Numbered from the stretch's first letter, positions 2,025-63,522 are shown. The stretch: DNA of 64,000 nucleotides from Promethearchaeota archaeon (GCA_048937405.1 JBHLNF010000007.1:64001-128000), one strand, 5' to 3'. Numbers and translations are program-made. The notes: generated by a model not told the origin, from the letters alone.

Positions 2025-2351
2025 TTAATTAATAATTTTTTGAATCATTTCATAATTTCCGGTACATTGAATTTTTTCTTCTCCTTCTTTTATATAGAAT
2101 TGAACATCGTAGTATGGCCAAAAAATTCTTTGCTTACCAACTAAGCCTCTTGTTACCACAATATTCAATTGATTTTTCATCGATTCAACCACATTCATAT
2201 ATTTTTTATATTGTGTCTCAGTATCCTTCATTACTTCCACATTAAGCACCAATATTTCTTGACCTTCTTGTGCAATTAACTCTTTGAGACGCTCTATTAA
2301 ATAGATCCATTTAAATTCCCATGAAGTATTTTGTTCGGTCATAATTCCCAA
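2025..2351 (-). CDS. Hypothetical protein
   Basis: 108-aa ORF co-oriented just downstream of the TPR gene. Confidence 0.55.
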   Translation of the reverse strand: MGIMTEQNTSWEFKWIYLIERLKELIAQEGQEILVLNVEVMKDTETQYKKYMNVVESMKNQLNIVVTRGLVGKQRIFWPYYDVQFYIKEGEEKIQCTGNYEMIQKIIN

Positions 2352-2396
2352 TCATATTGAGATTATATAAAAAAAAAATTAAAGAGTTTCTCAATA

Positions 2397-4091
2397 TTAT
2401 TTATGAATATTCGGATATATTATCTTATTTGGGTAAATTTTACGTGCTTTTTTTATTATTTCAAGAGCTGCTTCATTTTTCTTCATATTAAATAATATTC
2501 CTGCTTGTTCTGAGTAAATTTCAAATAATAAGTCTTTTTCCAATTCTGGATTGAGAATATCTTCCAAGATTTTTAATGCATCTCTATTTTTTTTTAAATA
2601 GAAAGCAAGATATCGTGCTTTTTGTAAATATAACTGTGTTGATGTTGGGGCGATATTGATAGCAGTATTTAATACTTCTAAAGCCTTTTCATACATATCC
2701 AAGAAACAATAGACCGAGGCTAAATTTGAATAGTATTGTGGAACGGAAGGATCTATTTCGATAGCTCGATTTATTGCTTCTATAGCTTTTTCATATTTAT
2801 TCTTCCACATTAAAATATTTGCTAAATTTATATGATAATTTGCAACTTCTGGATTTATTTCAATGGCTTTTTTAATATTTTTCAAGGCTTTATTATATTC
2901 ACCATTAAATTGTAATATTTGCGTTTTAATAGCATAATTTAATGAATTTTTAGTATTTAAGTCAATTGCTTTATCAACGTATTCTAAACTATTATTAACC
3001 ATTGTATCATGTTTGAAATGTGGAATTTCTTTATTAGCTTCTTTAAGACATGTTATTGCTTTTTTTTGCAAATAATCCAGACGTTCAAAAATATATATAT
3101 CAGAAGTTAAAATTAAGGCAGGAATTTCTTTTAGATTTAGGTAATTAAAAAAGTATTTTTTCTTAAAGTCTTTAAACATTTTTATTAAATAATTCCTTAT
3201 TACGTAAAAAAGAGGAATTTCTAAACTCTCGTGAAAAAGATTGTACTTTTTAATTAACTCAAATAAGATTTCTTCACATAAATCATTTATAATGATTTCT
3301 TTAAAATTATTAGAGTCTACAATTCCTAAATAATAATGGCTTCTCAGGATAGATTGAATTATAGCTTTAAAAATCGTTCCATATTCATCTGTGGATCTAA
3401 AATATAGAATAATATTTTCTTTTGATAATTTTACTTCATAAAACGTAATAAAACAAGCTTCTTTCACAACAACTTGATGTAAGAACCATTTTAATTCCAT
3501 CTTAGTTAACTTATTCTTTCCATATTTTTTGATAAAATCCTCTAATGAAATTGATATTTTTTTAGCTTCATCAAAAAATTTTACGTGATTTAAAGTTAAA
3601 TATAAAATTGAAATATTTAACTTATCTTCAGAAAACGACTTTAAATTTTCTGTTGGTAATTCATTTCTAATTTTGAGAAACTCAATGACAATATTTATAT
3701 CTTTTATATTAAATAAATTTAAGAACTGATTAATTTGATCAAGATTTTTAGTGGAAACTTTTTGTTCCAAATTTAAAATAGTCTTAATATCTAACCTATA
3801 GGATTTAAGTCTTTTAATCAATTCTTTCACTCCCAAACTAGTGACTGAATAAATACTATTCTTTTGATCCCGTGTAACGTTGATAAAATTTTTGCTTTTT
3901 AATTTTCTCGCCCATTTATGAAAAGTATTTTTATTCATTCTATTTGATATCCCCTTTTCAGAACTGTTTATAAATTCTTCACGTCTCATTGGGCCATAGA
4001 CACCTAATATATAGAGAATAGCATCTTCATACTTTTTATTCTCCCAAATTTGAACAGGAATTTTATAAGGAATGATATTCATTTCAGCCAT
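2397..4091 (-). CDS. Winged-helix plus tetratricopeptide-repeat protein
   Basis: N-terminal wHTH (MNKNTFHKWARKL...YSVTSLG); C-terminal TPRs (KAIEINPEVANYHINLA, RAIEIDPSVPQYYSNLA). Confidence 0.8.
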   Translation of the reverse strand: MAEMNIIPYKIPVQIWENKKYEDAILYILGVYGPMRREEFINSSEKGISNRMNKNTFHKWARKLKSKNFINVTRDQKNSIYSVTSLGVKELIKRLKSYRLDIKTILNLEQKVSTKNLDQINQFLNLFNIKDINIVIEFLKIRNELPTENLKSFSEDKLNISILYLTLNHVKFFDEAKKISISLEDFIKKYGKNKLTKMELKWFLHQVVVKEACFITFYEVKLSKENIILYFRSTDEYGTIFKAIIQSILRSHYYLGIVDSNNFKEIIINDLCEEILFELIKKYNLFHESLEIPLFYVIRNYLIKMFKDFKKKYFFNYLNLKEIPALILTSDIYIFERLDYLQKKAITCLKEANKEIPHFKHDTMVNNSLEYVDKAIDLNTKNSLNYAIKTQILQFNGEYNKALKNIKKAIEINPEVANYHINLANILMWKNKYEKAIEAINRAIEIDPSVPQYYSNLASVYCFLDMYEKALEVLNTAINIAPTSTQLYLQKARYLAFYLKKNRDALKILEDILNPELEKDLLFEIYSEQAGILFNMKKNEAALEIIKKARKIYPNKIIYPNIHK

Positions 4092-40540: not shown

Positions 40541-41245
40541 TGGTAGATCACAATTAATTTGTGGGATAGACGAGGCTGGCAGAATTTAATTCACTTCGAA
40601 TTTATGTTAAAAGGCTCTGTCTTAGGCCCAATGGTTATATGTGGTGTTTGTTTTACTAAATTAAATCTTGACACCCTTTCAGAAATTGGAGTCAAAGATT
40701 CAAAAAAGTTATCTCCTCAAAAAAGAAAAAATTTAGCTGAAATTATCAAAAAGAACTGTAATTCATATAAAATAATTGAGGTAACTGCTCAAGAGATTGA
40801 CGAGAGAGAACAAAAAAAAATTTCTCTGAACCGACTTGAGGAGCTTAAAATGGCTGAAATAGTTAATAACTTAAAACCTGATGTTATTTATATAGATGCT
40901 GCTGATGTCAATGAAAAAAGATTTGGAATATCAATAAAAAAATTATTAAATTATAATCCCAAAAACATCATTTCTAAACATAGAGCAGATGATATTTATC
41001 CTATCGTTTCTGCTGGTTCAATAATAGCTAAGGATAGAAGAGATTTCCTAATTGAAGAAATACATAAAAAATATGGAAATTTTGGTTCTGGTTACCCTTC
41101 GGATCCTAGAACGATCAAATTTCTAAGAGATTATATAAAAAAGTATAAAAAAGCTCCTGGAATTGCAAGAAAAACCTGGGATACTACAAAAAAAATAATA
41201 AATGAAGAAGTATCAAATAAGAAAATAACTGAGTTTTTTAGCTAG
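40518..41245 (+). CDS. rnhB: Ribonuclease HII, two exons: join(40518..40582,40612..41245), 232 aa
   Basis: Exon 1 ...LICGIDEAG(R) is in a different frame from exon 2 GSVLGPMV...VKDSKKL...DAAD...VSAGSIIAK...GSGYPSD, PIP box KITEFF; alternative starts at 40500 or 40503. Confidence 0.92.
40583..40611 (+). other. Putative 29-nt BHB-type mRNA intron in rnhB
   Basis: Central helix TGGC/GTTA, bulges AG|A and AA|A, intron stem AATTC/GAATT; removal gives GGC AGA GGC TCT (GRGS). Confidence 0.8.
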
Positions 41246-44163: not shown

Positions 44164-45010
44164 AAATACAATTAAGACAGTGAAAGTCCGAAACATTATT
44201 GAGGAATGCAAGGATGTAAAAACCCTTGTTTTTAATATGAAAATTAGAAAAAGTGAAAAATATATTACTCCTAAACCTGGACAATTTGTTATGGTATGGA
44301 TACCTGGCATAGATGAGGTACCTATGTCCCTATCTGGATGTGATAGTAATGGAAATTGGTCAATCACAGTTAAAAATGTAGGAGAATGTACAAATGCCAT
44401 GCATAATCTTAATATTGGAGATTATATTGGCATAAGAGGCCCATTAGGCAATCATTTTAAACTAAAAAATCATAATTTAAAAGAAATCTTCTTAATTGGG
44501 GGTGGAATTGGGATGGCTCCATTAAAATACCTCTCTACCCAACTTACTCAGATGAATATTAAACATAGAATTATAGAAGGAGTAAAAAATGAAGATGATA
44601 TTATGTTTAATAACTATTTTCAAGAAGCTATAAGGAATCATTCTGAAATTCACTATTGTACTGATGATGGAAGTTATGGAATAAAAGGTGTTGCTTCTGA
44701 TGTTTTTAAAGAACTGATAAGTAAATCTAATAAAAAAAAACTGTCTAATCTAGTAGTTTATTCCTGTGGTCCAGAAGTTATGCTATTTAAATTATTTCAA
44801 ATATGTCAAGAACAAAAAATTGAGTTTTATGCGAGTCTTGAAAGAATAATGAGATGTGGGTGTGGATTATGTGGTTTATGCGCATTAGATCCATTAGGAT
44901 TACTTGTTTGTAAAGATGGTCCTATATTTAATTCAAAACAATTAGAAAAAATTAAAGACTTCGGAAAATATCAGCGTGATTTTACAGGAAAAAAAATTTT
45001 AGTTAATTGA
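44156..45010 (+). CDS. pyrK: Dihydroorotate dehydrogenase electron-transfer subunit
   Basis: PGQF, RGPLG, GGGIGMAP, CGPEVM, MRCGCGLCGLC, VCKDGPIF. Confidence 0.95.
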   Translation: MTENTIKTVKVRNIIEECKDVKTLVFNMKIRKSEKYITPKPGQFVMVWIPGIDEVPMSLSGCDSNGNWSITVKNVGECTNAMHNLNIGDYIGIRGPLGNHFKLKNHNLKEIFLIGGGIGMAPLKYLSTQLTQMNIKHRIIEGVKNEDDIMFNNYFQEAIRNHSEIHYCTDDGSYGIKGVASDVFKELISKSNKKKLSNLVVYSCGPEVMLFKLFQICQEQKIEFYASLERIMRCGCGLCGLCALDPLGLLVCKDGPIFNSKQLEKIKDFGKYQRDFTGKKILVN

Positions 45011-45252
45011 TTTAATTTTATTGTTTTTCTCTTTTTGATTTTTTTTTAAATATATTAGATTTCGTGAATATCCTCTCTAATTCTGATATCTCTTTTTTCT
45101 AATTTTTTTCTAAAAGAACAAAATCAAATCTAATCAAAGCTTACCAAAAAATCACATCTTACAGAATATTAATAATTTAAACATTAATTTTATAATATTA
45201 ATAAATTAAATAAAATTGATAGAAATTATAATAGAGTTTAATAAATAATTCC

Positions 45253-45822
45253 ATGTGCTTCTATATTACATCAACGCTTCCAAAAAAGGTTAAATTAGAA
45301 GATTTAGAAGAAGTTTTTAAAAAATATAATATGGCTTTTAAATCGATAAAGAATGTATCAATTCAAGATCAATTAAGACCAGAGGAACTTTATTTTAGAG
45401 CAACTAATGCATATTGTGATTGTAATACTATATTGGGTGCCCTAAACACTTCTGAAGAATATAAAAAATTGCTAGATTCTGAAAAGATAAGGAGTTTAAA
45501 AAAGAAAAAGTGGACATCGGAACAAATTGATATCTGGATCCATGAAAAAATTAAAGGGAAAAACCCAAAATTTGAGAAACTTACTGAGATCGAAAAAGAA
45601 AATGAAATAAAAAGATGGAAAGACTTTATTCAAGAGATATTAGCATCAAAAAAGGTTAAGAGAATTGGAATTTTAAAGCACTGGTATAATTCAAGTCTTT
45701 CTGAGGAAAAATTTAAAATTAGAGAATTTAAACAAATACAAATAGACCGATTAAATAAAAATTTACTTTTAAATTTAGAAGAAGATATTCTTTATGAGTT
45801 TATCCCACTTTACAAATATTAA
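45253..45822 (+). CDS. Hypothetical protein (possible Cys/His metal site)
   Basis: MC...YCDC...HWY; first cargo gene after pyrK. Confidence 0.65.
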   Translation: MCFYITSTLPKKVKLEDLEEVFKKYNMAFKSIKNVSIQDQLRPEELYFRATNAYCDCNTILGALNTSEEYKKLLDSEKIRSLKKKKWTSEQIDIWIHEKIKGKNPKFEKLTEIEKENEIKRWKDFIQEILASKKVKRIGILKHWYNSSLSEEKFKIREFKQIQIDRLNKNLLLNLEEDILYEFIPLYKY

Positions 45823-45986
45823 TGATATATAATCGTATTTAGACCATTTTTTCAAGAGTAATAATTTATTGAATAATAATCTTTTAAACAATTATTAAAA
45901 GCTTTTTTCATTTTATAGACTGAGGAATAACGATTTTCAGGTTTATAGGTCACAGTTTTTCGAAAGAATTAATTAAAACAATCTAA

Positions 45987-46127
45987 CGCGGTTTATGAGC
46001 ATTAGATCAATTATAATTGCTGGACTATAAGGATGGACAGATTTTTAATCTGGAAACTCTCAAAGAAATTCAGGATTTTGGGAAGTATAAAAGAGATTTT
46101 ACTGGTAAAAAGATATCATTAGAATAG
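45987..46127 (+). pseudogene. Relic pyrK 3' end, copy 1
   Basis: GL*ALDQL*LLDYKDGQIFNLETLKEIQDFGKYKRDFTGKKISLE* aligns without gaps to PyrK GLCALDPLGLLVCKDGPIFNSKQLEKIKDFGKYQRDFTGKKILVN*. Confidence 0.93.
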
Positions 46128-46130
46128 TTT

Positions 46131-47414
46131 TTAAGTCTTTTTTGTTGGTCGAAGCCCTAAAATAGCTTCGCTTATTTTATTACCAATCTTAACAATTCCT
46201 AGCATATTAAGCAAGATATCAAAGAATAAATAAGGTTTCACAGGATTTTCATCATTTTTTAGAATCTCAGCTAATTTGGAATGAAACTCAAAGCTTAATG
46301 CCTCAACCTTCTTGTATTGGTCCTCAGATATAAACTGATAGTATATCAAGTTCTTCTCGAGTGCCTCCATAAGTACACTAATTATCTCTATCATTGGTAA
46401 TTCTTCCATAGATACAGATGTCAGGAGATGACTCTCTGTCGCTTCTAAATAACTATTAATGTAGTCTGAAATCATCTTAAGTTTTTTATATTCATAAGAG
46501 AATTTAGGTATATTTGCCAGAAGAGGTTCCCAATTATTCTCTCTTATTGCCTTTTCTAAATCAAATTCCTTTTTTTCCAATAGCAAATCAAAATCTTTAC
46601 TTAGCTTATAATATTTTCTCTTGATATTGCCAGGTTGTACCTCATCTTCTTTTGTGTATGATTGAATTAATCCCAATCGAATTAAATCTCTTGTGCAACG
46701 AGAAAGTTGTGCTTTACTTTTACCTGTATGATAAGACATTTCTTTAAGGCTTAATTCCTTATAAATTTTCAGTAATATGAATATTCTGAAGTCTAATTCA
46801 TTCCGAAAAACATCTACAAACTGCCTTTTAGGATATACCCTTTTAATTATTTTCGCAAAATTATTAAAAAGATCTACTATTTCTTTTTCTTTTTCTGAAG
46901 ATATTTCTATCGCTCCGATTAGATTTCTTGTGGAGGCTAACTTATTACCATGTTCGATAGAGACCTCTCTCTCATCTTGAAGATCTGCTTTAGTTCCAAT
47001 CATTAGAATCGGAATACTCACATTTCTTTTGGTTTTTTTAAATAATTTTAGCCACCATTCTAAATCGGCTAGACTAGATTTATCGGTTATATCATAAACA
47101 AATATAGCCCCCGCAGCACCTACAGTAAAAGGTTCAAAATAAGGTTGTGGTTTTTTTAATTTACCTTCCCTTTTTGTTTTTGTTAATTTAAGATCCTTAA
47201 ATTTTTCTGTACCTGTGAGTTCCCAAACATGCAATATTAAGTCTATATCATCTATTTTTAATGTCTTCTGATAGAATGTTACTCCTAAAGTTAATTTTGG
47301 GGGAGCACCTAAACTTTTATTATCAGCTTCTTTAAAATATTTACTTAATAATGTGGATTTTCCCACTCCACTTTCTCCAAAAACACATATTTTATAGATT
47401 TGTGGTTTTTTCAT
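46131..47414 (-). CDS. Rab/Ras-like small GTPase fused to a winged-helix domain
   Basis: GESGVGKS, WELTG, VYDIT, GTKAD, EISS; then LSLKEMSYHTGKSKAQLSRCTRDLIRLGLI...RKYYKL. Confidence 0.85.
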   Translation of the reverse strand: MKKPQIYKICVFGESGVGKSTLLSKYFKEADNKSLGAPPKLTLGVTFYQKTLKIDDIDLILHVWELTGTEKFKDLKLTKTKREGKLKKPQPYFEPFTVGAAGAIFVYDITDKSSLADLEWWLKLFKKTKRNVSIPILMIGTKADLQDEREVSIEHGNKLASTRNLIGAIEISSEKEKEIVDLFNNFAKIIKRVYPKRQFVDVFRNELDFRIFILLKIYKELSLKEMSYHTGKSKAQLSRCTRDLIRLGLIQSYTKEDEVQPGNIKRKYYKLSKDFDLLLEKKEFDLEKAIRENNWEPLLANIPKFSYEYKKLKMISDYINSYLEATESHLLTSVSMEELPMIEIISVLMEALEKNLIYYQFISEDQYKKVEALSFEFHSKLAEILKNDENPVKPYLFFDILLNMLGIVKIGNKISEAILGLRPTKKT

Positions 47415-47545
47415 TTTTTTATTACCATTTTATTTTTATTTAATTTCATAAAAAATGTAACGTTTCATATATATAAATATTATGCAACGCTGGAAATCAT
47501 CCCTAATCATTACAAAATCAACTTTAAAAATTTTTAAAAATCTTT

Positions 47546-47638
47546 AAAGATGACCCGATTTTCGATTTGGAATCGCTAAAAAAGATTCAAGATTTCGGAA
47601 AATCTCAAAGAGAATTCACAGGTAAAAAAATAAAAATT
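47546..47638 (+). pseudogene. Relic pyrK 3' end, copy 2
   Basis: KDDPIFDLESLKKIQDFGKSQREFTGKKIKI vs PyrK KDGPIFNSKQLEKIKDFGKYQRDFTGKKILV. Confidence 0.9.
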
Positions 47639-47642
47639 TGCT

Positions 47643-49049
47643 TTATTGACTGAGGATACTACCTACATCGTTAATTAATTTTTTATAAAATTGATCTTCT
47701 TCCATCTCATGTTTTAATATTCCTTGTACTCTTCGAATCCGCATCTTTAATCCCGGACTTAAGTCTGTTTCTCTTAAATATATTGCTAAATATGGTTTCT
47801 TTTCATTCATAGCAAGATGAATTTCATCTTGAGTATTATCCGATTCCATCACATAAGGAGATATAAATGAAAGAAATAAACTGCATCCTAATAATTTTTC
47901 TGCAATAGTATTACACCAATCTGTACTTAAGGGAATTCCTTCATCATACCATATTCGAAAACCTTTATTATCTAATTTTTGTAGAATGGGGTATACCTCC
48001 GCTTTATCTTTATGAGTATAACTTACGAAAATAAATTTTTTATCTCCCATATATGCTGAGAAAGGAGGTTCAACTGATAATTCTGCTGTGGTTTGCTTTA
48101 AATTGCTTTTAAGATAAGTTTCCAAATCCTTTTCGTTTTTGGGTAGACTTGGATCATTAAGATCACCAAATTTCTTTAAAATTTTTTGAACATGCTTAGG
48201 ATTGTTCATTATTTTAGAAATAACATCATAATTATCTAATATTAATTTTGTTGGCTTTCCAGATTCTGCTCTTTCTTTTGGGATTTTTACAATTAAGCTT
48301 ACAACCTTTTTTGTTACCCAATTCTCAACACCTGTTTCTTCATTAAACAAATCTTTTGTCGTTTTACCGGCATATTCACCCCCCCACTCTAAAGTAACCA
48401 GCTCATCATTAATAAATATTTTATAATCACCTTCTAGCATAATAGCTGGATCTTCTTTGAACAAACTTTGAGTAGCTACAAGATCTATTCTTTTTTGGAT
48501 TGATTTAAAAAATTCTTTACTAACTTTGAACGGTAAATTATCTGATGTAATGATTTTTTTTCCTATTAGCATGAGATAAATTGCCGTCTGGTGCAAACAT
48601 AATCCTTTTTTTTTTCCAATAATACAAGAACAGCTTCTTTTTACAGCACCGTCGACAATTTGAAGGGAAGCTTTTTGAGATCCATATTTACTTGAAAACC
48701 AGACGTTATATCCTTTTCCACCACCTATAATAACAGCATTTTGAATTTTTTCGACCTTATGCTCTCCGCTAATTAGTGATACTGCATTTAATAATAATTG
48801 TTCTGCAAAATCCTTTTCAAAATCTTTGTATAATCTCTTTTTTTCATTATCTTCTAGTGAGGAGTCGAGAAAAGTCACTAATTCCTCCTTTTTAAGGTTT
48901 GAATATCCTTTCAAATTCTTTTCTTTGCTAATAGCGCCTTGATTATATCCCTTTATTATCTCCTTAATTTTTGGAATGGTTAGTGATTTCAAAAATGTCT
49001 CAAATGTGAAAGGCTCTAATCCTTTTACTTTTGGTTTCTTTTTTCCCAT
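47643..49049 (-). CDS. SAP/HeH-like, SWIM zinc finger and C-terminal TIR domain protein
   Basis: LTIPKIKEII..GYSNLKKEELV; CSC-x8-CLH; FVSYTHKD...WYDEGI...QDEI. Confidence 0.82.
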   Translation of the reverse strand: MGKKKPKVKGLEPFTFETFLKSLTIPKIKEIIKGYNQGAISKEKNLKGYSNLKKEELVTFLDSSLEDNEKKRLYKDFEKDFAEQLLLNAVSLISGEHKVEKIQNAVIIGGGKGYNVWFSSKYGSQKASLQIVDGAVKRSCSCIIGKKKGLCLHQTAIYLMLIGKKIITSDNLPFKVSKEFFKSIQKRIDLVATQSLFKEDPAIMLEGDYKIFINDELVTLEWGGEYAGKTTKDLFNEETGVENWVTKKVVSLIVKIPKERAESGKPTKLILDNYDVISKIMNNPKHVQKILKKFGDLNDPSLPKNEKDLETYLKSNLKQTTAELSVEPPFSAYMGDKKFIFVSYTHKDKAEVYPILQKLDNKGFRIWYDEGIPLSTDWCNTIAEKLLGCSLFLSFISPYVMESDNTQDEIHLAMNEKKPYLAIYLRETDLSPGLKMRIRRVQGILKHEMEEDQFYKKLINDVGSILSQ

Positions 49050-49127
49050 ATTTTATCAAATTCATTTTCCATAAAAAGTATTCCTATTGACTATTAAAGA
49101 ATATTTTTTAGATAAAAATTAAAATAA

Positions 49128-49235
49128 TTTGCCCTATCTCATATTGGAATCTTTTTAATTAGAGACTAATTACTTTATATCTCAGAAGTCCTTAGTAATT
49201 TGGAAGATTTTAGAAAATATTAACATAAATTTCAT
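49128..49235 (+). pseudogene. Relic pyrK 3' end, copy 3 (heavily decayed)
   Basis: FALSHIGIFLIRD*LLYISEVLSNLEDFRKY*HKF stays in register with CALDPLGLLVCKDGPIFNSKQLEKIKDFGKYQRDF. Confidence 0.6.
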
Positions 49236-49370
49236 AAAGAAGGCAATATAAAATCGATTTTGATATCAAAAAGTAAAATTATGAACTTTAATTAATTGAG
49301 TTGTTTCTTGGATATTTAGAATTCTTTTTAAGATTTAAAAAAGATAAAAATTTTTTAAAGTGTTTTTTAG

Positions 49371-50246
49371 CTATACTATTTCGCTATAAAGGGGAGATCC
49401 GGCTTTCATATAACGATTCATTTGACGTAGAGAGGCAACTTCTTTGCCCCCTTCTTTTTCTTTTAAAATAGCATCGTACCAGTAATATTCTGTCTTTCGA
49501 CTAACACCCGCACATATTACTTTTCCAGTTGCTTCATAAGGAATCCCAACCATTACTGGTCCATTAATATTTTGAATTTCAGTAGCCCCATAAAATGGTA
49601 CACCTTGGGTCCTCGCAATGTCTAAGATATTTGAGTTTAGAGACATCGTCCAAAATATAGCTGTCGGTGATAGAATTGATTTTCCCCATGGTGAATTTCC
49701 CTTATAGTAATCAAGATGATCAGTTATCGTTTTTAATCCTTCATTAGCATCCTCTTGGAAGATTAAGACATCTTTCATATTAAGATCGTCTCCTACTTTC
49801 ATTCCTGCTAAAATTCGCAGTTCCTCTGGTTTACTATTTTTAAGTTCTATACTTTGAAGGTAAGATAATTCTTTTGGTTCACCAACTGCTGCTGTACCTG
49901 TTGCAACGACTTGTCCGTTTGGCATCTCAACTCGCGCTTCTACTTGAACATCTTTAGACTCCTCAGAAGGCATCTTAATAATCCCTCTTACCTTTTCTTT
50001 ATGAGTTGTAGCAAATGTGTAATACATACTTAATGATCCTCTTTCAAACCATCGCTGCCCAAAAATTTCAAGTAATAACGGAGCGAATAAACTCAAATGG
50101 ATTGTTCCAGGAATTGTCCCACCTCGCATTCCTACTTTTTTTGCAGTAGCATCATCATGAATTGATGTTTTTAAATTGCTCCAAAGGTTTTCTGGGGCTC
50201 TCCAAGCGCCATACATAAATCCATCTTTAATAGTAATTTCAGTCAT
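49371..50246 (-). CDS. Double hot-dog-fold (MaoC-like) protein
   Basis: SIHDDATAKKVGMRGGTIPGTIH resembles the MaoC hydratase motif. Confidence 0.7.
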   Translation of the reverse strand: MTEITIKDGFMYGAWRAPENLWSNLKTSIHDDATAKKVGMRGGTIPGTIHLSLFAPLLLEIFGQRWFERGSLSMYYTFATTHKEKVRGIIKMPSEESKDVQVEARVEMPNGQVVATGTAAVGEPKELSYLQSIELKNSKPEELRILAGMKVGDDLNMKDVLIFQEDANEGLKTITDHLDYYKGNSPWGKSILSPTAIFWTMSLNSNILDIARTQGVPFYGATEIQNINGPVMVGIPYEATGKVICAGVSRKTEYYWYDAILKEKEGGKEVASLRQMNRYMKAGSPLYSEIV

Positions 50247-50535
50247 TTAAATAACCTAAAAATTATTTACTGCTATAAGAAAATTATGTCTAATCTATTA
50301 AATCTTTTGATTCAAATTATCGAAATAAAGGATAAAAAATATTCTTAAATGATTATTTCCCTAAATTGCGGAAGATAAATAAAAAAAAGTAAAATCTTCT
50401 TTTTATTGGAGTTCTAATACAAATTAGGTTGATATTCTCTCTATTTTTACTTTAACAATTTTCTAGATAAATTCTATCATTATACAAACCAATACTCCTA
50501 ATTGTGGAGAGGAATTAAGAAAAAAATTGTTTTAG

Positions 50536-51567
50536 TCAATCTGGTTTAAGAAGATCATATACTATCTCTGGTTCAAGTGGCTGATATGGTGTCTTCTTGA
50601 AGTGTTCTTTGCATAATTCATAAAGAATTTTATTAAACGGAGCATCCACTCCAAGTAAATTAGCTAATTTTATAAAATAACCATTAAGGGATTCTAGTTC
50701 TGATCGACCTTTTTGACGAATTATCATATCCTGTATCATACTGTTTGGCCCCCTATCTATGAAAAATCTCGAAAATATTTTATCTGCTATTTCGGTGGGT
50801 AAATTTACAGCATCTTGTAACTCTTTCCAAGGTAAAAAACCTGGTAAACTGTATTCATGATACCCAGCAGCTTGAACTATATTGATACCTTCATTCAATG
50901 TAGTGACAATGATCTCTCTCAGAATTGAGATTGAGTTTGGACTAGGATTTTTATGATTGATTAGTGTTAAAATGGAATTTAAAAGGTTGAAAATCATTTT
51001 ACCATGAATAGCATCCTGTATTTTCTCTGAGATTTGAACTTTCGTAGCTTTACTTAATATTTCACACATTTCTTTTAGTTCTTTTTGTAAACTATTGTCA
51101 AGCGTACCAAGAATGAGGTATCCCCGATTTAAGTATCCAAAAATGCCTGGTTCATCCCTCCATGCCGATATCATTATAACACCGTATATAATTTTAGAAA
51201 AATATTTAGGCAACACTTTTTGGTTTTCAGTACCATTTTGTAATGTGATAATGATTGGGTTATCTCCTAATTTCTCATGAATATCTTTCGCAACTTCCTC
51301 CAAGTCATAATTCTTTACAACTATGATTACGACATTAGTTGAAGGCTTTTCGTTTAAATCTTGAATAATTTTCACAGGAATTGGATTTTTCGGGGGATTT
51401 TCTTTTCTGTATAGAATTATTCCTTTATTCATCATAACTTTGGCGTTTTGACCACGTGCCAACAGATAAACTTTATCATAATAAGGTGATAGCCATGCAC
51501 CAATTGAAGCGCCTATTGCACCCGCGCCATATATCACAATCTCATAATCCTTATTCAAATTTGACAT
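50536..51567 (-). CDS. panE: Ketopantoate reductase family protein
   Basis: GAGAIG, VKNYD, LQNG, K...N, SMIQD, SELESLNG. Confidence 0.85.
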   Translation of the reverse strand: MSNLNKDYEIVIYGAGAIGASIGAWLSPYYDKVYLLARGQNAKVMMNKGIILYRKENPPKNPIPVKIIQDLNEKPSTNVVIIVVKNYDLEEVAKDIHEKLGDNPIIITLQNGTENQKVLPKYFSKIIYGVIMISAWRDEPGIFGYLNRGYLILGTLDNSLQKELKEMCEILSKATKVQISEKIQDAIHGKMIFNLLNSILTLINHKNPSPNSISILREIIVTTLNEGINIVQAAGYHEYSLPGFLPWKELQDAVNLPTEIADKIFSRFFIDRGPNSMIQDMIIRQKGRSELESLNGYFIKLANLLGVDAPFNKILYELCKEHFKKTPYQPLEPEIVYDLLKPD

Positions 51568-51741
51568 GTCAAATATAGTTGTACTTTAACTTTAAATTTT
51601 AATAATTATCTAACTGAAAATAAGAAATTAATAGATTAGAAAGAGAAATCATATTATAAAATCTTTATATTAGAACTTAAATCAAAAAGTATAATTTTCA
51701 TGAATGTTTAAATCATTTTAACAAATTGATTAATTTTAAGA

Positions 51742-53401
51742 ATGGAACAATCAGAGAATATAAACTTAAGTAAAGTAAAGAAAATAGCAAGGGAAATAAT
51801 TGAATATCTGTTAATAAATCCTAATACTTCCCGCAGAAAAATTACAAACCTTAAAGGACAAATTGGCAAAAAATATAATTATGATCGAGTAATAAAAAAT
51901 GCCACAATCTTGTCTCATGCAACAAATGAAGAAAAAGAGATTATCACTAAATTATTGAAGAGAAGAACAACAAGAACTATTTCAGGAGTTTCAGTAATTG
52001 CTATTATGACAAAACCTCTTCCTTGTCCTGGAACATGTATTTATTGTCCAGGTGTAAAATCCCAACCAGGAGAAAAAGTTGCCCAATCATATACAGGAAG
52101 AGAACCCGCAGCTATGAGATCAATATATAATAATTATGATCCCTACAAGCAAGTTCAATCTCGAATTAAAGATTTAGAAGCAATTGGGCATAAAGTGGAC
52201 ATGGTTTACGCTTGGTTGTATTCCACCATAAAAGATTGAACTTATTATAATGGGAGGGACATTTTTATCAATAGATTCAGAATATCAAAAACAATTCGTA
52301 AAAGGAGCATTAGAGGGAATAATAGAACAGAAAACAAATACCATAGAAGAAGCTAAGATATTAGCAGAAAAGGCTAAGCGAAGAGTTATAGGAATTACAG
52401 TTGAAACAAGACCAGACTATTGTAAAGAAACCCATATTGATAATATGTTACACTTTGGAACTACTCGAGTCGAAATTGGTATTCAAACAATTTATAATGA
52501 AATCTATGATTTGATAAAAAGAGGACATACTACTGCTGATAGCATTGAATCGATAAGACTTGCTAAAGATGCTGGGTTAAAGATCAATGCTCATATAATG
52601 CCAAATTTACCGGGTTCCAATTATTCTCTAGATTTAAAACTATTTGCCAATTTGTTCTCTATACCAGATTATCGCCCAGATATGTTAAAGATTTATCCCA
52701 CTCTGGTAATAAATGGAACTGAATTATATGATTGGTGGAAAAGTGGTAAATATATGCCCTATTCTGATAAAGAATTAATAGAACTAATTGTAAAAGCTAA
52801 AATCGATCTCCCTCCTTATGTTAGAATTCAAAGAATTATGCGAGATATCCCTGCTACCTTAATTGAAGCAGGTTGTAAGAATAGTAACTTAAGACAGTTA
52901 GTACAAGAACGATTAAAAGAAACTAATCAAATTTGTAAATGTATTAGGTGCAGAGAATATGGAATCAGTAAAAGAAAAGATATTCTCAATGAAGATTCAT
53001 TTGATGATATAAAACTATATCGTTTGGATTATGATGCCTCGCTAGGAAAAGAAATTTTCTTATCTTATGAAAATAAAAAAGAAGGTTATTTAATTGGATA
53101 TTTACGCTTAAGAAAGCCTTCTGAATTTGCTCATAGACCTGAATTGAATGATGGAAAAACAATGATTGTAAGGGAGATTAAAGTCGTTGGTGAATTAGTT
53201 CCTAAAGACATGAAACCAAATAGATATACTCAAATCCAACATAGAGGATATGGTAAACTTTTAATGGAAAATGCTGAGAAAATATCGTTTAAAGATTTCA
53301 AAATGAGTAAATTAGCTGTAATTAGTGGTCTTGGCGCAAAAGACTGGTTTTATGATTTAGGATATAAACCAGATGGTGTATATGTCTCGAAAATTCTTTA
53401 A
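51742..53401 (+). CDS. elp3: tRNA U34 acetyltransferase Elp3, two exons: join(51742..52200,52232..53401), 542 aa
   Basis: RTISGVSVIAIM, CPGTCIYCPG, QSYTGREPA in exon 1; (K)IELIIMGGTF, ETRPD, LKIYP, RIMRDIP, QHRGYG in exon 2. Confidence 0.95.
52201..52231 (+). other. Putative 31-nt BHB/BHL-type mRNA intron in elp3
   Basis: Central helix GTGG/CCAT, bulges AC|A and AA|A, intron stem TGG/CCA plus TAC/GTA; removal gives GHKVD-KIELIIMGGTF. Confidence 0.82.
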
Positions 53402-63277: not shown

Positions 63278-63381
63278 CGGGCTATGAGGGAATTTCGCGC
63301 TCACCATTCTTTAAAGAGCGATTCGAACCCCCGACCTGCCGGTTAAGAGCCGGTTGCGCTACCTGCCTGCGCCAATAGCCC
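63278..63381 (-). tRNA. tRNA-Lys(CUU) with 30-nt non-canonical intron at 59/60 (63292-63321)
   Basis: GGGCTAT/ATAGCCC acceptor stem, CT-CTT-AA loop; BHB with TTCG/CGAA helix, bulges AA|T and AT|T, intron stem CGCTC/GAGCG. Confidence 0.93.
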
Positions 63382-63420
63382 ATATATTATACCATATATT
63401 ACCGATTGAAAGCTATAATA

Positions 63421-63522
63421 CGCAGATGGAGGGACTCGAACCCCCGAGCGCTCACGCGCACCGGCTCACTCGGTTGTGAAAAACACTCAAGGCCGGCGTC
63501 TTACCAGCTAGGCTACATCTGC
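63421..63522 (-). tRNA. tRNA-Ser(UGA) with 19-nt canonical 37/38 intron (63467-63485)
   Basis: GCAGATG/CATCTGC acceptor stem, long variable arm; BHB with CTTG/CGAG helix, bulges AG|T and TG|A, intron stem GTT/AAC. Confidence 0.93.

What the first reader, a model, noticed from the sequence alone, without database searches (positions are those of the whole stretch)
52151..52243. 31-nt intron in elp3 closed by a long-range 11-bp exon-exon helix
Seen: GTG GAC[ATGGTTTACGCTTGGTTGTATTCCACCATAA]AAG ATT GAA; removal yields a 542-aa Elp3 with IGHKVDKIELIIMGGTF. The central helix is GUGG/CCAU. The adjacent exon bases do not pair, but AGATTGAACTT (52233-52243), starting right after the 3' bulge, is the perfect complement of AAGTTCAATCT (52151-52161), looping out 33 nt; this is a relaxed BHL-like substrate. 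Established: Elp3 modifies tRNA U34, so like cbf5 the host gene is a tRNA-modification enzyme. Inference: possible feedback between tRNA splicing and tRNA modification.
Basis: partly seen in the sequence, partly recalled or inferred. Interest (0 to 1): 0.88.

Follow-up and report, generated by a model that had tools for sequence, protein, structure and literature searches.

The report
tRNA-type mini-intron in Asgard elp3
The only elp3 gene of this Loki-type Asgard archaeon is split by a 31-base insert shaped like an archaeal tRNA intron, which comparison with 15 other carriers shows must be cut out of the mRNA, but the striking 11-base-pair long-range exon helix next to it is a lineage-specific extra, not a conserved part of the splice signal.

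Summary
A 31-nt insert (52201-52231) splits elp3. Removing it joins ...IGHKVD to KIELIIMGGTF with no residue lost against solved Elp3 structures. AAGTTCAATCT (52151-52161) is the perfect complement of AGATTGAACTT (52233-52243).

I found the same 31-nt insert at the same site in 15 further alleles from Promethearchaeota genomes and metagenomes. About 43 other orthologs, including 40 of 42 genomes of the same genus, are uninterrupted.

Across the carriers:
- The 4-bp helix GUGG/CCAU and both 3-nt bulges never vary.
- The intron hairpin shows compensatory changes in 7 of 8 pairs.
- Both exons are under purifying selection (dN/dS about 0.12).
- The six codons between the intron and the first downstream ATG stay coding, although a TAA precedes them.

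[quoted passage not shown] The insert is very probably an endonuclease-spliced mRNA intron, but no RNA data exist.

The long-range helix shows no compensatory change and is interrupted or lost in about half the carrier alleles. The conserved substrate is therefore a relaxed HBh' motif. The proposed feedback between tRNA splicing and tRNA modification has no support.

The intron-bearing 5' segment has moved between species by recombination. This scan had already noted the same elp3 intron in another genome, and many similar mini-introns.

The parts
51742..52200 (+). elp3 exon 1 (153 codons: ELP3 N-terminal region and the start of the radical-SAM domain with the CPGTCIYC cluster motif)
   Evidence: aligns to solved Elp3 up to residue 133 of 6ia8. 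dN/dS is 0.118 against the G024 allele.
52201..52231 (+). 31-nt intron, predicted to be excised by EndA and the exons joined by RtcB
   Evidence: Absent from about 43 distinct intron-less orthologs. Present at the identical site and length in 15 other alleles.
52232..53401 (+). elp3 exon 2 (389 codons plus stop: the rest of the radical-SAM domain and the acetyltransferase domain)
   Evidence: aligns from residue 134 of 6ia8 (E 2.6e-112). The first six codons (KIELII) are kept coding in all carriers, although an in-frame TAA precedes them.
52195..52198 (+). central helix H, exon strand GUGG (the Val codon GTG plus the G of the Asp codon)
   Evidence: Pairs with 52226-52229 and is invariant in 16/16 carriers. 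The Val codon is GTG in 16/16 carriers against 1/43 intron-less orthologs.
52226..52229 (+). central helix H, intron strand CCAU
52199..52201 (+). 5' bulge ACA; predicted cut between 52200 and 52201 (after the second bulge base)
   Evidence: The cut rule is from PMC2738675. The cut gives the exact exon 1 end.
52230..52232 (+). 3' bulge AAA; predicted cut between 52231 and 52232
   Evidence: Invariant in all carriers.
52202..52225 (+). intron hairpin h' (in this allele UGG/CCA plus UACG/UGUA around two U-U mismatches)
   Evidence: Seven of 8 pairs show changes on both sides among 16 alleles, and 93% of cells are paired.
52151..52161 (+). 5' arm of the long-range exon-exon helix h (AAGTTCAATCT, codons Q V Q S)
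   Evidence: Perfect complement of 52233-52243, with pair probability 0.8-1.0. No covariation, and lost in several carriers.
52233..52243 (+). 3' arm of helix h (AGATTGAACTT, codons K I E L), starting right after the 3' bulge
52162..52194 (+). 33 coding bases (RIKDLEAIGHK) looped out between h and H on the 5' strand

Best explanation
The 31 nt at 52201-52231 are a bulge-helix-bulge-type intron in the elp3 pre-mRNA.

**Structure.** Exon bases GUGG pair with intron bases CCAU. A 3-nt bulge lies on each strand, and an intron hairpin (h') flanks the 5' bulge.

**Mechanism (inferred, not observed).** The genome's (alpha-beta)2 splicing endonuclease cuts after the second base of each bulge. RtcB then joins GUG GAC to AAG AUU, giving one 542-aa Elp3.

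**Conserved signal.** What is kept across carriers is the relaxed HBh' form. In this genome and its nearest alleles, an 11-bp pairing between exon 1 (52151-61) and the first bases of exon 2 additionally clamps the 3' splice site. That clamp is a lineage-specific accessory built on complementarity that the protein sequence already gives, not a required element.

**Spread.** The intron, together with the 5' part of the gene, has spread among species of one Promethearchaeota genus by homologous recombination.
For: **The insertion is real and exact**
- The insertion sits exactly between adjacent residues of solved Elp3 structures.
- The same site and the same 31-nt length occur in 16 alleles with intact exons.
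- Nineteen protein clusters in public data end right after ..VD with non-conserved tails.

**The RNA structure is conserved**
- H and both bulges are invariant. This includes the 7 alleles found through the protein, which were not selected on these bases.
- h' has 7 of 8 pairs with compensatory changes. The covariation score is 0.177 against 0.098 in shuffles (0 of 500 reach it), and 90.5% of cells are paired against 28-42% when partners are slid.
- The H+B+h' core is the minimum-energy fold in 10 of 16 alleles, equal to or better than the free fold in L072, and within 2 kcal/mol in the other 5.
- The cut rule 'between the 2nd and 3rd bulge residue' (PMC2738675) gives the in-frame junction.

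**The gene is functional**
- dN/dS is 0.12 in both exons between the two genome alleles.
- The six codons before the first ATG of ORF2 vary at all six third positions yet still encode KIEL[IV][IVC], behind an in-frame TAA.
- It is the only elp3 in the genome.

**The machinery is present**
- The EndA alpha subunit has the Tyr/His/Lys triad and the K-P-R of the Crenarchaea-specific loop, aligned to A. pernix K44/R46.
- A beta-like subunit lacks the catalytic His.
- RtcB lies on the same contig.
- Asgard EndAs are reported as (alpha-beta)2 with the L1 loop (PMC5829648).

**The gene is a mosaic**
- Carriers group together in the 5' segment (support 94/90, together with intron-less L053 on a long branch). 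Their monophyly is not rejected there (p 0.30-0.34).
- It is rejected in the 3' segment (p-AU 1e-37 and 6e-30).
- The flanking gatE is 92% identical to intron-less G053 but 80% identical to carrier G024.
Against: - No RNA evidence of the spliced junction: no RNA run holds this DNA.
- In this window's own allele the core is not the predicted optimum. P(H) is 0.05 and the core lies 1.4 kcal/mol above the MFE, because exon bases 52177-52189 can pair with the intron.
- Eight of the 16 alleles were retrieved with a pattern that fixed H, the bulges and the first h' pairs. Their constancy there is by design.
- The carriers share ancestry in the 5' segment, so codon associations (GTG, TCT) are not independent events.
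- The exon-side helix h of a canonical hBHBh' motif is missing locally.
Confidence: 0.85

Rival explanations
1. One reading: the 11-bp long-range exon-exon helix is a necessary part of the substrate. It replaces the missing local exon helix and closes the 3' bulge, so splicing depends on it.
For: - The helix is perfect and starts exactly after the 3' bulge.
- Pair probability is about 1 in this allele and in six others, where h+H+h' together is the MFE.
- P is about 1e-3 under codon usage alone and 2.6e-4 genome-wide.
- The Ser codon TCT that completes the helix is seen only in carriers within the genus.
Against: - No pair has a compensatory change, and 7 of 11 pairs vary only by breaking.
- The helix is gone or cut by internal loops in L065, L069, L071, L074, L077 and L078. 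All of these have intact exons and an intact H/h' core.
- In L065/L069/L071 the 5' arm is taken up by a local 9-bp hairpin.
- L074 and L078 even keep the AGT Ser codon of intron-less genes.
- Third-codon positions in the arms vary about as much as elsewhere in the alignment (read).
Confidence: 0.15
2. A genuinely split gene: two polypeptides (ORF1 165 aa, ORF2 383 aa starting at the ATG at 52250) are made from unspliced mRNA and assemble into Elp3.
For: Both ORFs are intact and conserved. A conserved ATG lies 6 codons after the insert.
Against: - The split would cut a conserved strand (KIELIIMGGTF) of the radical-SAM fold.
- The six codons upstream of that ATG remain under coding constraint, although they are preceded by TAA and have no start codon.
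- The ORF1 tails read from the insert are unrelated in sequence and length: MVYA, IVCT, MACVSKCATIKN and others.
- The Met is conserved in uninterrupted orthologs as well, so it gives no evidence of a start.
- The conserved RNA structure would have no role.
Confidence: 0.05
3. Translational recoding: a +1 frameshift or a ribosomal hop across the 31 nt restores the frame without RNA cutting.
For: The insert is 3n+1 long and contains a conserved hairpin, as hop sites do. In this allele ORF1 stays open until 52239, so a +1 slip at AAA-G (52230-52234) is conceivable.
Against: - In 12 of 16 alleles ORF1 stops inside the insert (for example GCT TAA), upstream of any possible slip site.
- There are no matched take-off and landing codons: GAY before the insert, ATAA-AAR after it.
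- The conserved features are exactly those EndA needs (a 4-bp exon-intron helix and two 3-nt bulges), not those of known hop sites.
Confidence: 0.03
4. A decaying pseudogene or an assembly error.
For: The frame is broken as annotated.
Against: - dN/dS is about 0.12 on both sides.
- Sixteen alleles carry the same insert and no other lesion.
- It is the sole elp3 copy.
- Independent assemblies and runs agree.
Confidence: 0.02

Closest known systems
BHB intron in the cbf5 (pseudouridine synthase) pre-mRNA of Crenarchaeota (Watanabe 2002; Yoshinari 2006; Yokobori 2009, PMC2738675)
   Same: - A short intron inside an archaeal protein-coding sequence.
- An unconventional or relaxed BHB at the exon-intron borders.
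- Cuts predicted between the 2nd and 3rd bulge residues.
- Dependence on a hetero-oligomeric (alpha-beta)2 EndA.
- Patchy distribution, implying gain and loss.
- The host gene is an RNA-modification enzyme.
   Different: - A different phylum (Promethearchaeota/Asgard) and a different host gene (elp3).
- Splicing is not shown experimentally here.
- The intron-flanking exon segment shows recombination between species.
- This allele adds a non-local exon-exon helix with 33 nt looped out.
Non-canonical archaeal tRNA introns with relaxed HBh' / BHL motifs (Marck and Grosjean 2003; Hirata 2011, PMC3241643; PMC5829648)
   Same: - A 4-bp central helix and 3-nt bulges, with an intron-side helix h' but a weak or missing exon-side helix.
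- Requires EndA with the specific loop (K44 in A. pernix). That lysine is present in this genome's alpha subunit.
   Different: The substrate is an mRNA with no tRNA body. The exon context is set by codons.
BHB processing stems of archaeal 16S/23S pre-rRNA
   Same: The helix flanking the cleavage motif is formed by long-range pairing of distant sequences.
   Different: In rRNA the strands opposite the bulges are continuous and the excised part is the rRNA itself. Here 33 coding bases are looped out opposite the 3' bulge, and the long-range helix is not conserved.
HAC1/XBP1 mRNA splicing by Ire1 and RtcB or tRNA ligase in eukaryotes
   Same: Non-spliceosomal, protein-enzyme mRNA splicing that changes the reading frame, with ligation by the tRNA ligase pathway.
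   Different: A different endonuclease and recognition motif, and regulated by stress. No regulation is shown here.

Membership tests
Archaeal BHB (EndA-spliced) introns | [quoted passage not shown] | tested here: met
   GUGG/CCAU with bulges ACA and AAA. Invariant in 16 alleles.
Archaeal BHB (EndA-spliced) introns | Cuts between the 2nd and 3rd bulge residues give the functional junction | tested here: met
   The rule is from PMC2738675. The predicted cuts at 52200/52201 and 52231/52232 remove 31 nt and join residues 133 and 134 of the Elp3 alignment.
Archaeal BHB (EndA-spliced) introns | Intron-side helix h' next to the 5' bulge, maintained by selection | tested here: met
   Seven of 8 pairs have changes on both sides, and 93% of cells are paired.
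Archaeal BHB (EndA-spliced) introns | Exon-side helix h adjacent to the central helix (needed for the strict hBHBh' form) | tested here: not met
   There is no local pairing 5' of GUGG. The only exon helix is displaced by 33 nt, is not conserved and has no covariation. The motif is therefore the relaxed HBh'/BHL form, which is an accepted substrate class for (alpha-beta)2 EndA (PMC5829648).
Archaeal BHB (EndA-spliced) introns | Host encodes a broad-specificity splicing endonuclease and an RtcB ligase | tested here: met
   Alpha subunit with the catalytic triad and the CSL lysine. Beta-like subunit. RtcB matches at 564 bits.
Archaeal BHB (EndA-spliced) introns | Spliced RNA (and a circular or linear free intron) observed | not testable with these tools
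   No RNA run holds this DNA.
Elp3 (tRNA U34 cm5U radical-SAM/acetyltransferase) | Full-length similarity to solved Elp3, including the radical-SAM and KAT domains | tested here: met
   Exon 1 matches 6ia8 at E 6e-30 and exon 2 at E 2.6e-112, and the two matches are contiguous.

The most novel reading that the evidence does not exclude
Loki-type Asgard archaea carry a population of about 30-nt endonuclease-spliced mini-introns in protein-coding genes. These introns move between species as DNA by co-conversion of the flanking exon. Exon-exon clamps such as the 11-bp helix here evolve afterwards from synonymous sites and tune how efficiently a given mRNA is spliced. Elp3 output would then depend on the capacity of the tRNA-splicing machinery.
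Probability: 0.2. Interest if true: 0.85.

Novelty: new member of a known kind. Interest (0 to 1): 0.66.

Why it matters
In the papers I could search, endonuclease-type introns inside archaeal coding sequences are documented only for cbf5 of Crenarchaeota. Here the same mechanism is strongly indicated for a different essential-type gene in the archaeal group closest to eukaryotes.

Sixteen natural alleles already serve as a mutational series:
- They define which parts of the signal are needed: the central helix H, the bulges and h'.
- They define which part is dispensable: the exon helix h.

The mosaic gene trees show an intron travelling with its exon flank between species. That bears on the open question of how archaeal BHB introns are gained.

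In practice, such inserts make annotators call two 'partial' Elp3 genes. At least 19 protein clusters in public data are such artefacts.

Tried and rejected
- **RNA evidence.** No RNA holder was listed for this stretch. Laying reads gave DNA contigs only, which cannot show splicing.
- **Paralogous intron copies.** blastn-short of the intron against the whole genome found nothing beyond chance 11-15-mers, so copying from a tRNA intron is not shown.
- **ARAGORN on the window.** It found no tRNA although Rfam finds one, so ARAGORN is a poor guide in this genome.
- **'Quick' tree of the 5' segment.** It was unreliable: the constrained trees scored better than the free search. I replaced it with the careful search. 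Even there, L003+L053 as a pair is not rejected in the 5' segment. The mosaic claim therefore rests on the 3'-segment AU test, the windowed identities and the gatE flank.
- **Other possible intron sites.** Three truncated N-terminal Elp3 ORFs that end a few codons away from the site (P0020, P0024, P0032) turned out to be gene relics, not introns.
- **Frameshift or hop.** Rejected because most alleles stop inside the insert.
- **Alternative register GUGG/CCAC (52223-26).** Rejected because the G-C to A-U double changes at alignment columns 64/85 and 65/84 pair within the intron while the exon Gs stay fixed.
- **Extra constraint on the helix arms.** I read this by eye from the alignment and saw no depletion of third-position variation. 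No formal test was run.
- **Joined 542-aa protein.** I did not fold or search it, because it has no reference.

Full report
**What is there.** The window encodes one Elp3 homologue broken into ORF1 (51742-52239) and ORF2 (52250-53401), whose frames differ by +1.
- Against solved Elp3 structures, exon 1 aligns up to residue 133 of M. infernus Elp3 (6ia8), ending ..GH(KV/PT)D.
- The translation starting at 52232 aligns from residue 134 (KIELIIMGGTF...) to the end, with E 2.6e-112.
- Exactly 31 nt (52201-52231) are therefore extra, and no codon is lost or gained.

**The organism.** The genome is 4.47 Mb in 29 contigs at 28.9% G+C. ARAGORN finds only 21 tRNA genes, most with introns. Matching public records are titled Promethearchaeota, that is Loki-type Asgard archaea.

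**The insertion is real DNA and recurs.**
- Contigs of four sediment metagenome runs from two studies keep the 31 nt. No contig joins across it, and a second allele co-occurs in two runs.
- In 54 genomes of the same genus, only this genome and G024 carry it. In the other 40 genomes where elp3 was found, the two halves are contiguous in one frame. The same holds for 9 genomes of three other families.
- A pattern scan of metagenome and genome collections found further carriers.
- So did an unbiased search with the ORF1 protein followed by contig look-ups.
- This makes 16 alleles in all (alignment A1). Every one has 31 nt at the same site and intact exons.
- Nineteen 90%-identity protein clusters in public data end right after ..VD with unrelated short tails. 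These are mis-called 'partial' Elp3 proteins.

**Why it must be removed from the RNA.**
- Between the two genome alleles, dN/dS is 0.118 in exon 1 (dS 0.39) and 0.12-0.13 in exon 2. Both halves are therefore under purifying selection.
- The six codons between the insert and the first ATG of ORF2 vary at all six third positions, yet always encode KIEL[IV][IVC]. The in-frame codon just upstream is TAA in every allele. They can be translated only if joined to exon 1.
- The read-through tails of ORF1 are not conserved. In 12 of 16 alleles they stop inside the insert, which excludes a downstream +1 frameshift.
- This is the only elp3 in the genome.

**The RNA motif.** On the 16-allele alignment:
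- The exon-intron helix GUGG/CCAU never varies. This includes the seven alleles that were not selected on those bases.
- The bulges A-C/U-A/U and AAA are kept.
- The intron hairpin h' has changes on both sides in 7 of its 8 pairs, for example G-C to A-U at the two pairs next to the closing U-A pair beside the 5' bulge.
- Overall 90.5% of cells are paired, against 28-42% when partners are slid. The covariation score is reached by 0 of 500 shuffles.
- The Val codon supplying the helix is GTG in 16/16 carriers but in only 1 of 43 intron-less orthologs. GTG is 10% of Val codons in this genome.
- Cutting between the second and third residue of each bulge is the rule established for cbf5 and tRNA introns (PMC2738675). 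It gives exactly 52200|52201 and 52231|52232.
- The H+bulge+h' core is the minimum-energy fold in 10 of 16 alleles, equal to or better than the free fold in L072, and within 2 kcal/mol in the other five.

**The machinery.**
- One EndA paralog (L001) is most similar to the catalytic alpha subunit of the A. pernix (alpha-beta)2 enzyme. It keeps the Tyr/His/Lys triad and aligns INKPR to VEKPR. That segment contains K44 and R46 of the Crenarchaea-specific loop, which gives broad substrate range (PMC3241643).
- The second paralog (L002) lacks the catalytic His and so looks like a structural beta subunit.
- RtcB lies on the same contig.
- Asgard archaea have been reported to have this enzyme type (PMC5829648).

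**The long-range helix: evidence that it is more than chance.**
- It is real. 52151-52161 and 52233-52243 are perfectly complementary, and the 3' arm starts right after the 3' bulge. Pair probabilities are 0.8-1.0.
- In the G024-type alleles the complete h + H + h' structure is the MFE.
- It is unlikely by chance: 2.6e-4 for random genome positions, and 0.0013 with the amino acids fixed and codons drawn from genome usage.

**The long-range helix: why it is not part of the conserved signal.**
- The conserved peptides QVQS and KIEL alone give a mean of 6-7 pairs, and intron-less orthologs show up to 7-8 contiguous pairs.
- Among carriers no pair shows a compensatory change, and 7 of 11 pairs vary only by breaking.
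- In L065/L069/L071 the 5' arm is captured by a local 9-bp hairpin and P(h) is 0. In L074, L077 and L078 the helix next to the bulge is gone.
- All of these alleles keep intact exons and an intact core.
- The conserved substrate is therefore the relaxed HBh' form. The 11-bp helix is best read as an accessory clamp that arose in one lineage through the Ser TCT, Lys AAG and Leu CTT codons. Whether it helps splicing is untested.

**A peculiarity of this window's allele.** It has the weakest h' of all, with two U-U mismatches. A competing pairing between exon 52177-52189 and the intron pushes the core 1.4 kcal/mol above the MFE.

**History.**
- Nucleotide identity between this gene and the G024 allele is 85-93% across exon 1. 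It falls to 78-81% from about 300 nt after the intron (84% in one later window).
- The reverse holds for the intron-less G053, G023 and G015 alleles.
- In a tree of the 3' segment the carriers are scattered, and their monophyly is rejected (p-AU 1e-37 for six alleles, 6e-30 for nine).
- In the 5' segment they fall on one side of a branch with 94/90 support, together with intron-less L053 on a long branch. Monophyly is not rejected there (p 0.30-0.34).
- The downstream gatE is 92% identical to G053 but 80% identical to G024.
- The intron-bearing 5' part of elp3 has therefore been exchanged between species by recombination. The direction and mechanism are not resolved.
- Divergent relics of the elp3 5' part lie beside or replace the gene in other contigs. 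This shows independently that this part of the gene is exchanged.

**Comparison and novelty.**
- The closest known case is the cbf5 pre-mRNA intron of Crenarchaeota.
- I found no paper on BHB-type introns in Asgard protein genes or in elp3. A 2026 preprint treats only Asgard tRNA introns.
- Notes of this scan report the same elp3 intron in another genome, with a weak outer helix, and many similar mini-introns in this and other Asgard genomes.
- I checked only the rnhB case in this window, by reading it.
- Since unrelated genes carry such inserts, a specific feedback between tRNA splicing and tRNA modification has no support.

**Verdict.**
- The intron interpretation is very probably right (0.85), pending RNA evidence.
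- The long-range helix exists but is accessory at most.
- This is a new member of a known kind.

Noticed in passing
window 40583-40611: A 29-nt insert splits rnhB inside DEAGR|G (GGC AG[29 nt]A GGC). By eye it has the same geometry: UGGC/GUUA helix, bulges AGA and AAA, an intron hairpin and an imperfect local exon helix. This is a second mRNA mini-intron candidate in the window.
   Followed up: partly
window 63421-63522 (-) and about 63290-63385 (-): Rfam finds a 102-nt tRNA with a 22-nt insert in the anticodon arm and a 13-nt insert near the variable region. ARAGORN missed it when run on the window. A second tRNA-like gene with an insert follows.
   Followed up: partly
L081:1501-1977 and 2147-3475; L080:231-749; L082:1501-1974: Truncated copies of the elp3 5' part.
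- In L081 a relic ending ..VDKIEFF lies 170 nt upstream of a complete, intron-less elp3 and is only 67.5% identical to it.
- The relics in L080 and L081 end 10-12 nt past the intron site; the one in L082 ends 11 codons before it.
- This looks like 5'-end replacement by incoming DNA.
   Followed up: partly
window about 44870-51742 versus L077, L078, L081: In relatives a pyrK-like gene (DHODB Fe-S binding domain) lies directly upstream of elp3. In this window about 6.5 kb, including an ApbA/PanE-like gene (50536-51567, minus strand), separates them. L072 shares the ApbA arrangement.
   Followed up: no
L053 (G053), intron-less elp3: By gatE and the elp3 3' segment this is the closest relative of this genome. 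It lacks the intron, yet it sits as a long branch among the carriers in the 5' segment and uses a TCA serine codon where other intron-less genes of the genus use AGY. This may be a precise intron loss.
   Followed up: no
window 52177-52189 with 52210-52223: This allele's private intron changes (positions 6, 14, 15, 20 and 22 of the intron) weaken h' and create a 13-bp exon-intron alternative pairing. That pairing outcompetes the splice motif in the predicted ensemble.
   Followed up: partly
G000:C25:60212-61519 (about 2.5 kb before the window start): The RtcB ligase gene lies on the same contig, close to the window.
   Followed up: no
whole genome G000: ARAGORN detects only 21 tRNA genes in 4.47 Mb, and 15 of them have introns. 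Most tRNA genes are probably too interrupted to be recognised.
   Followed up: no
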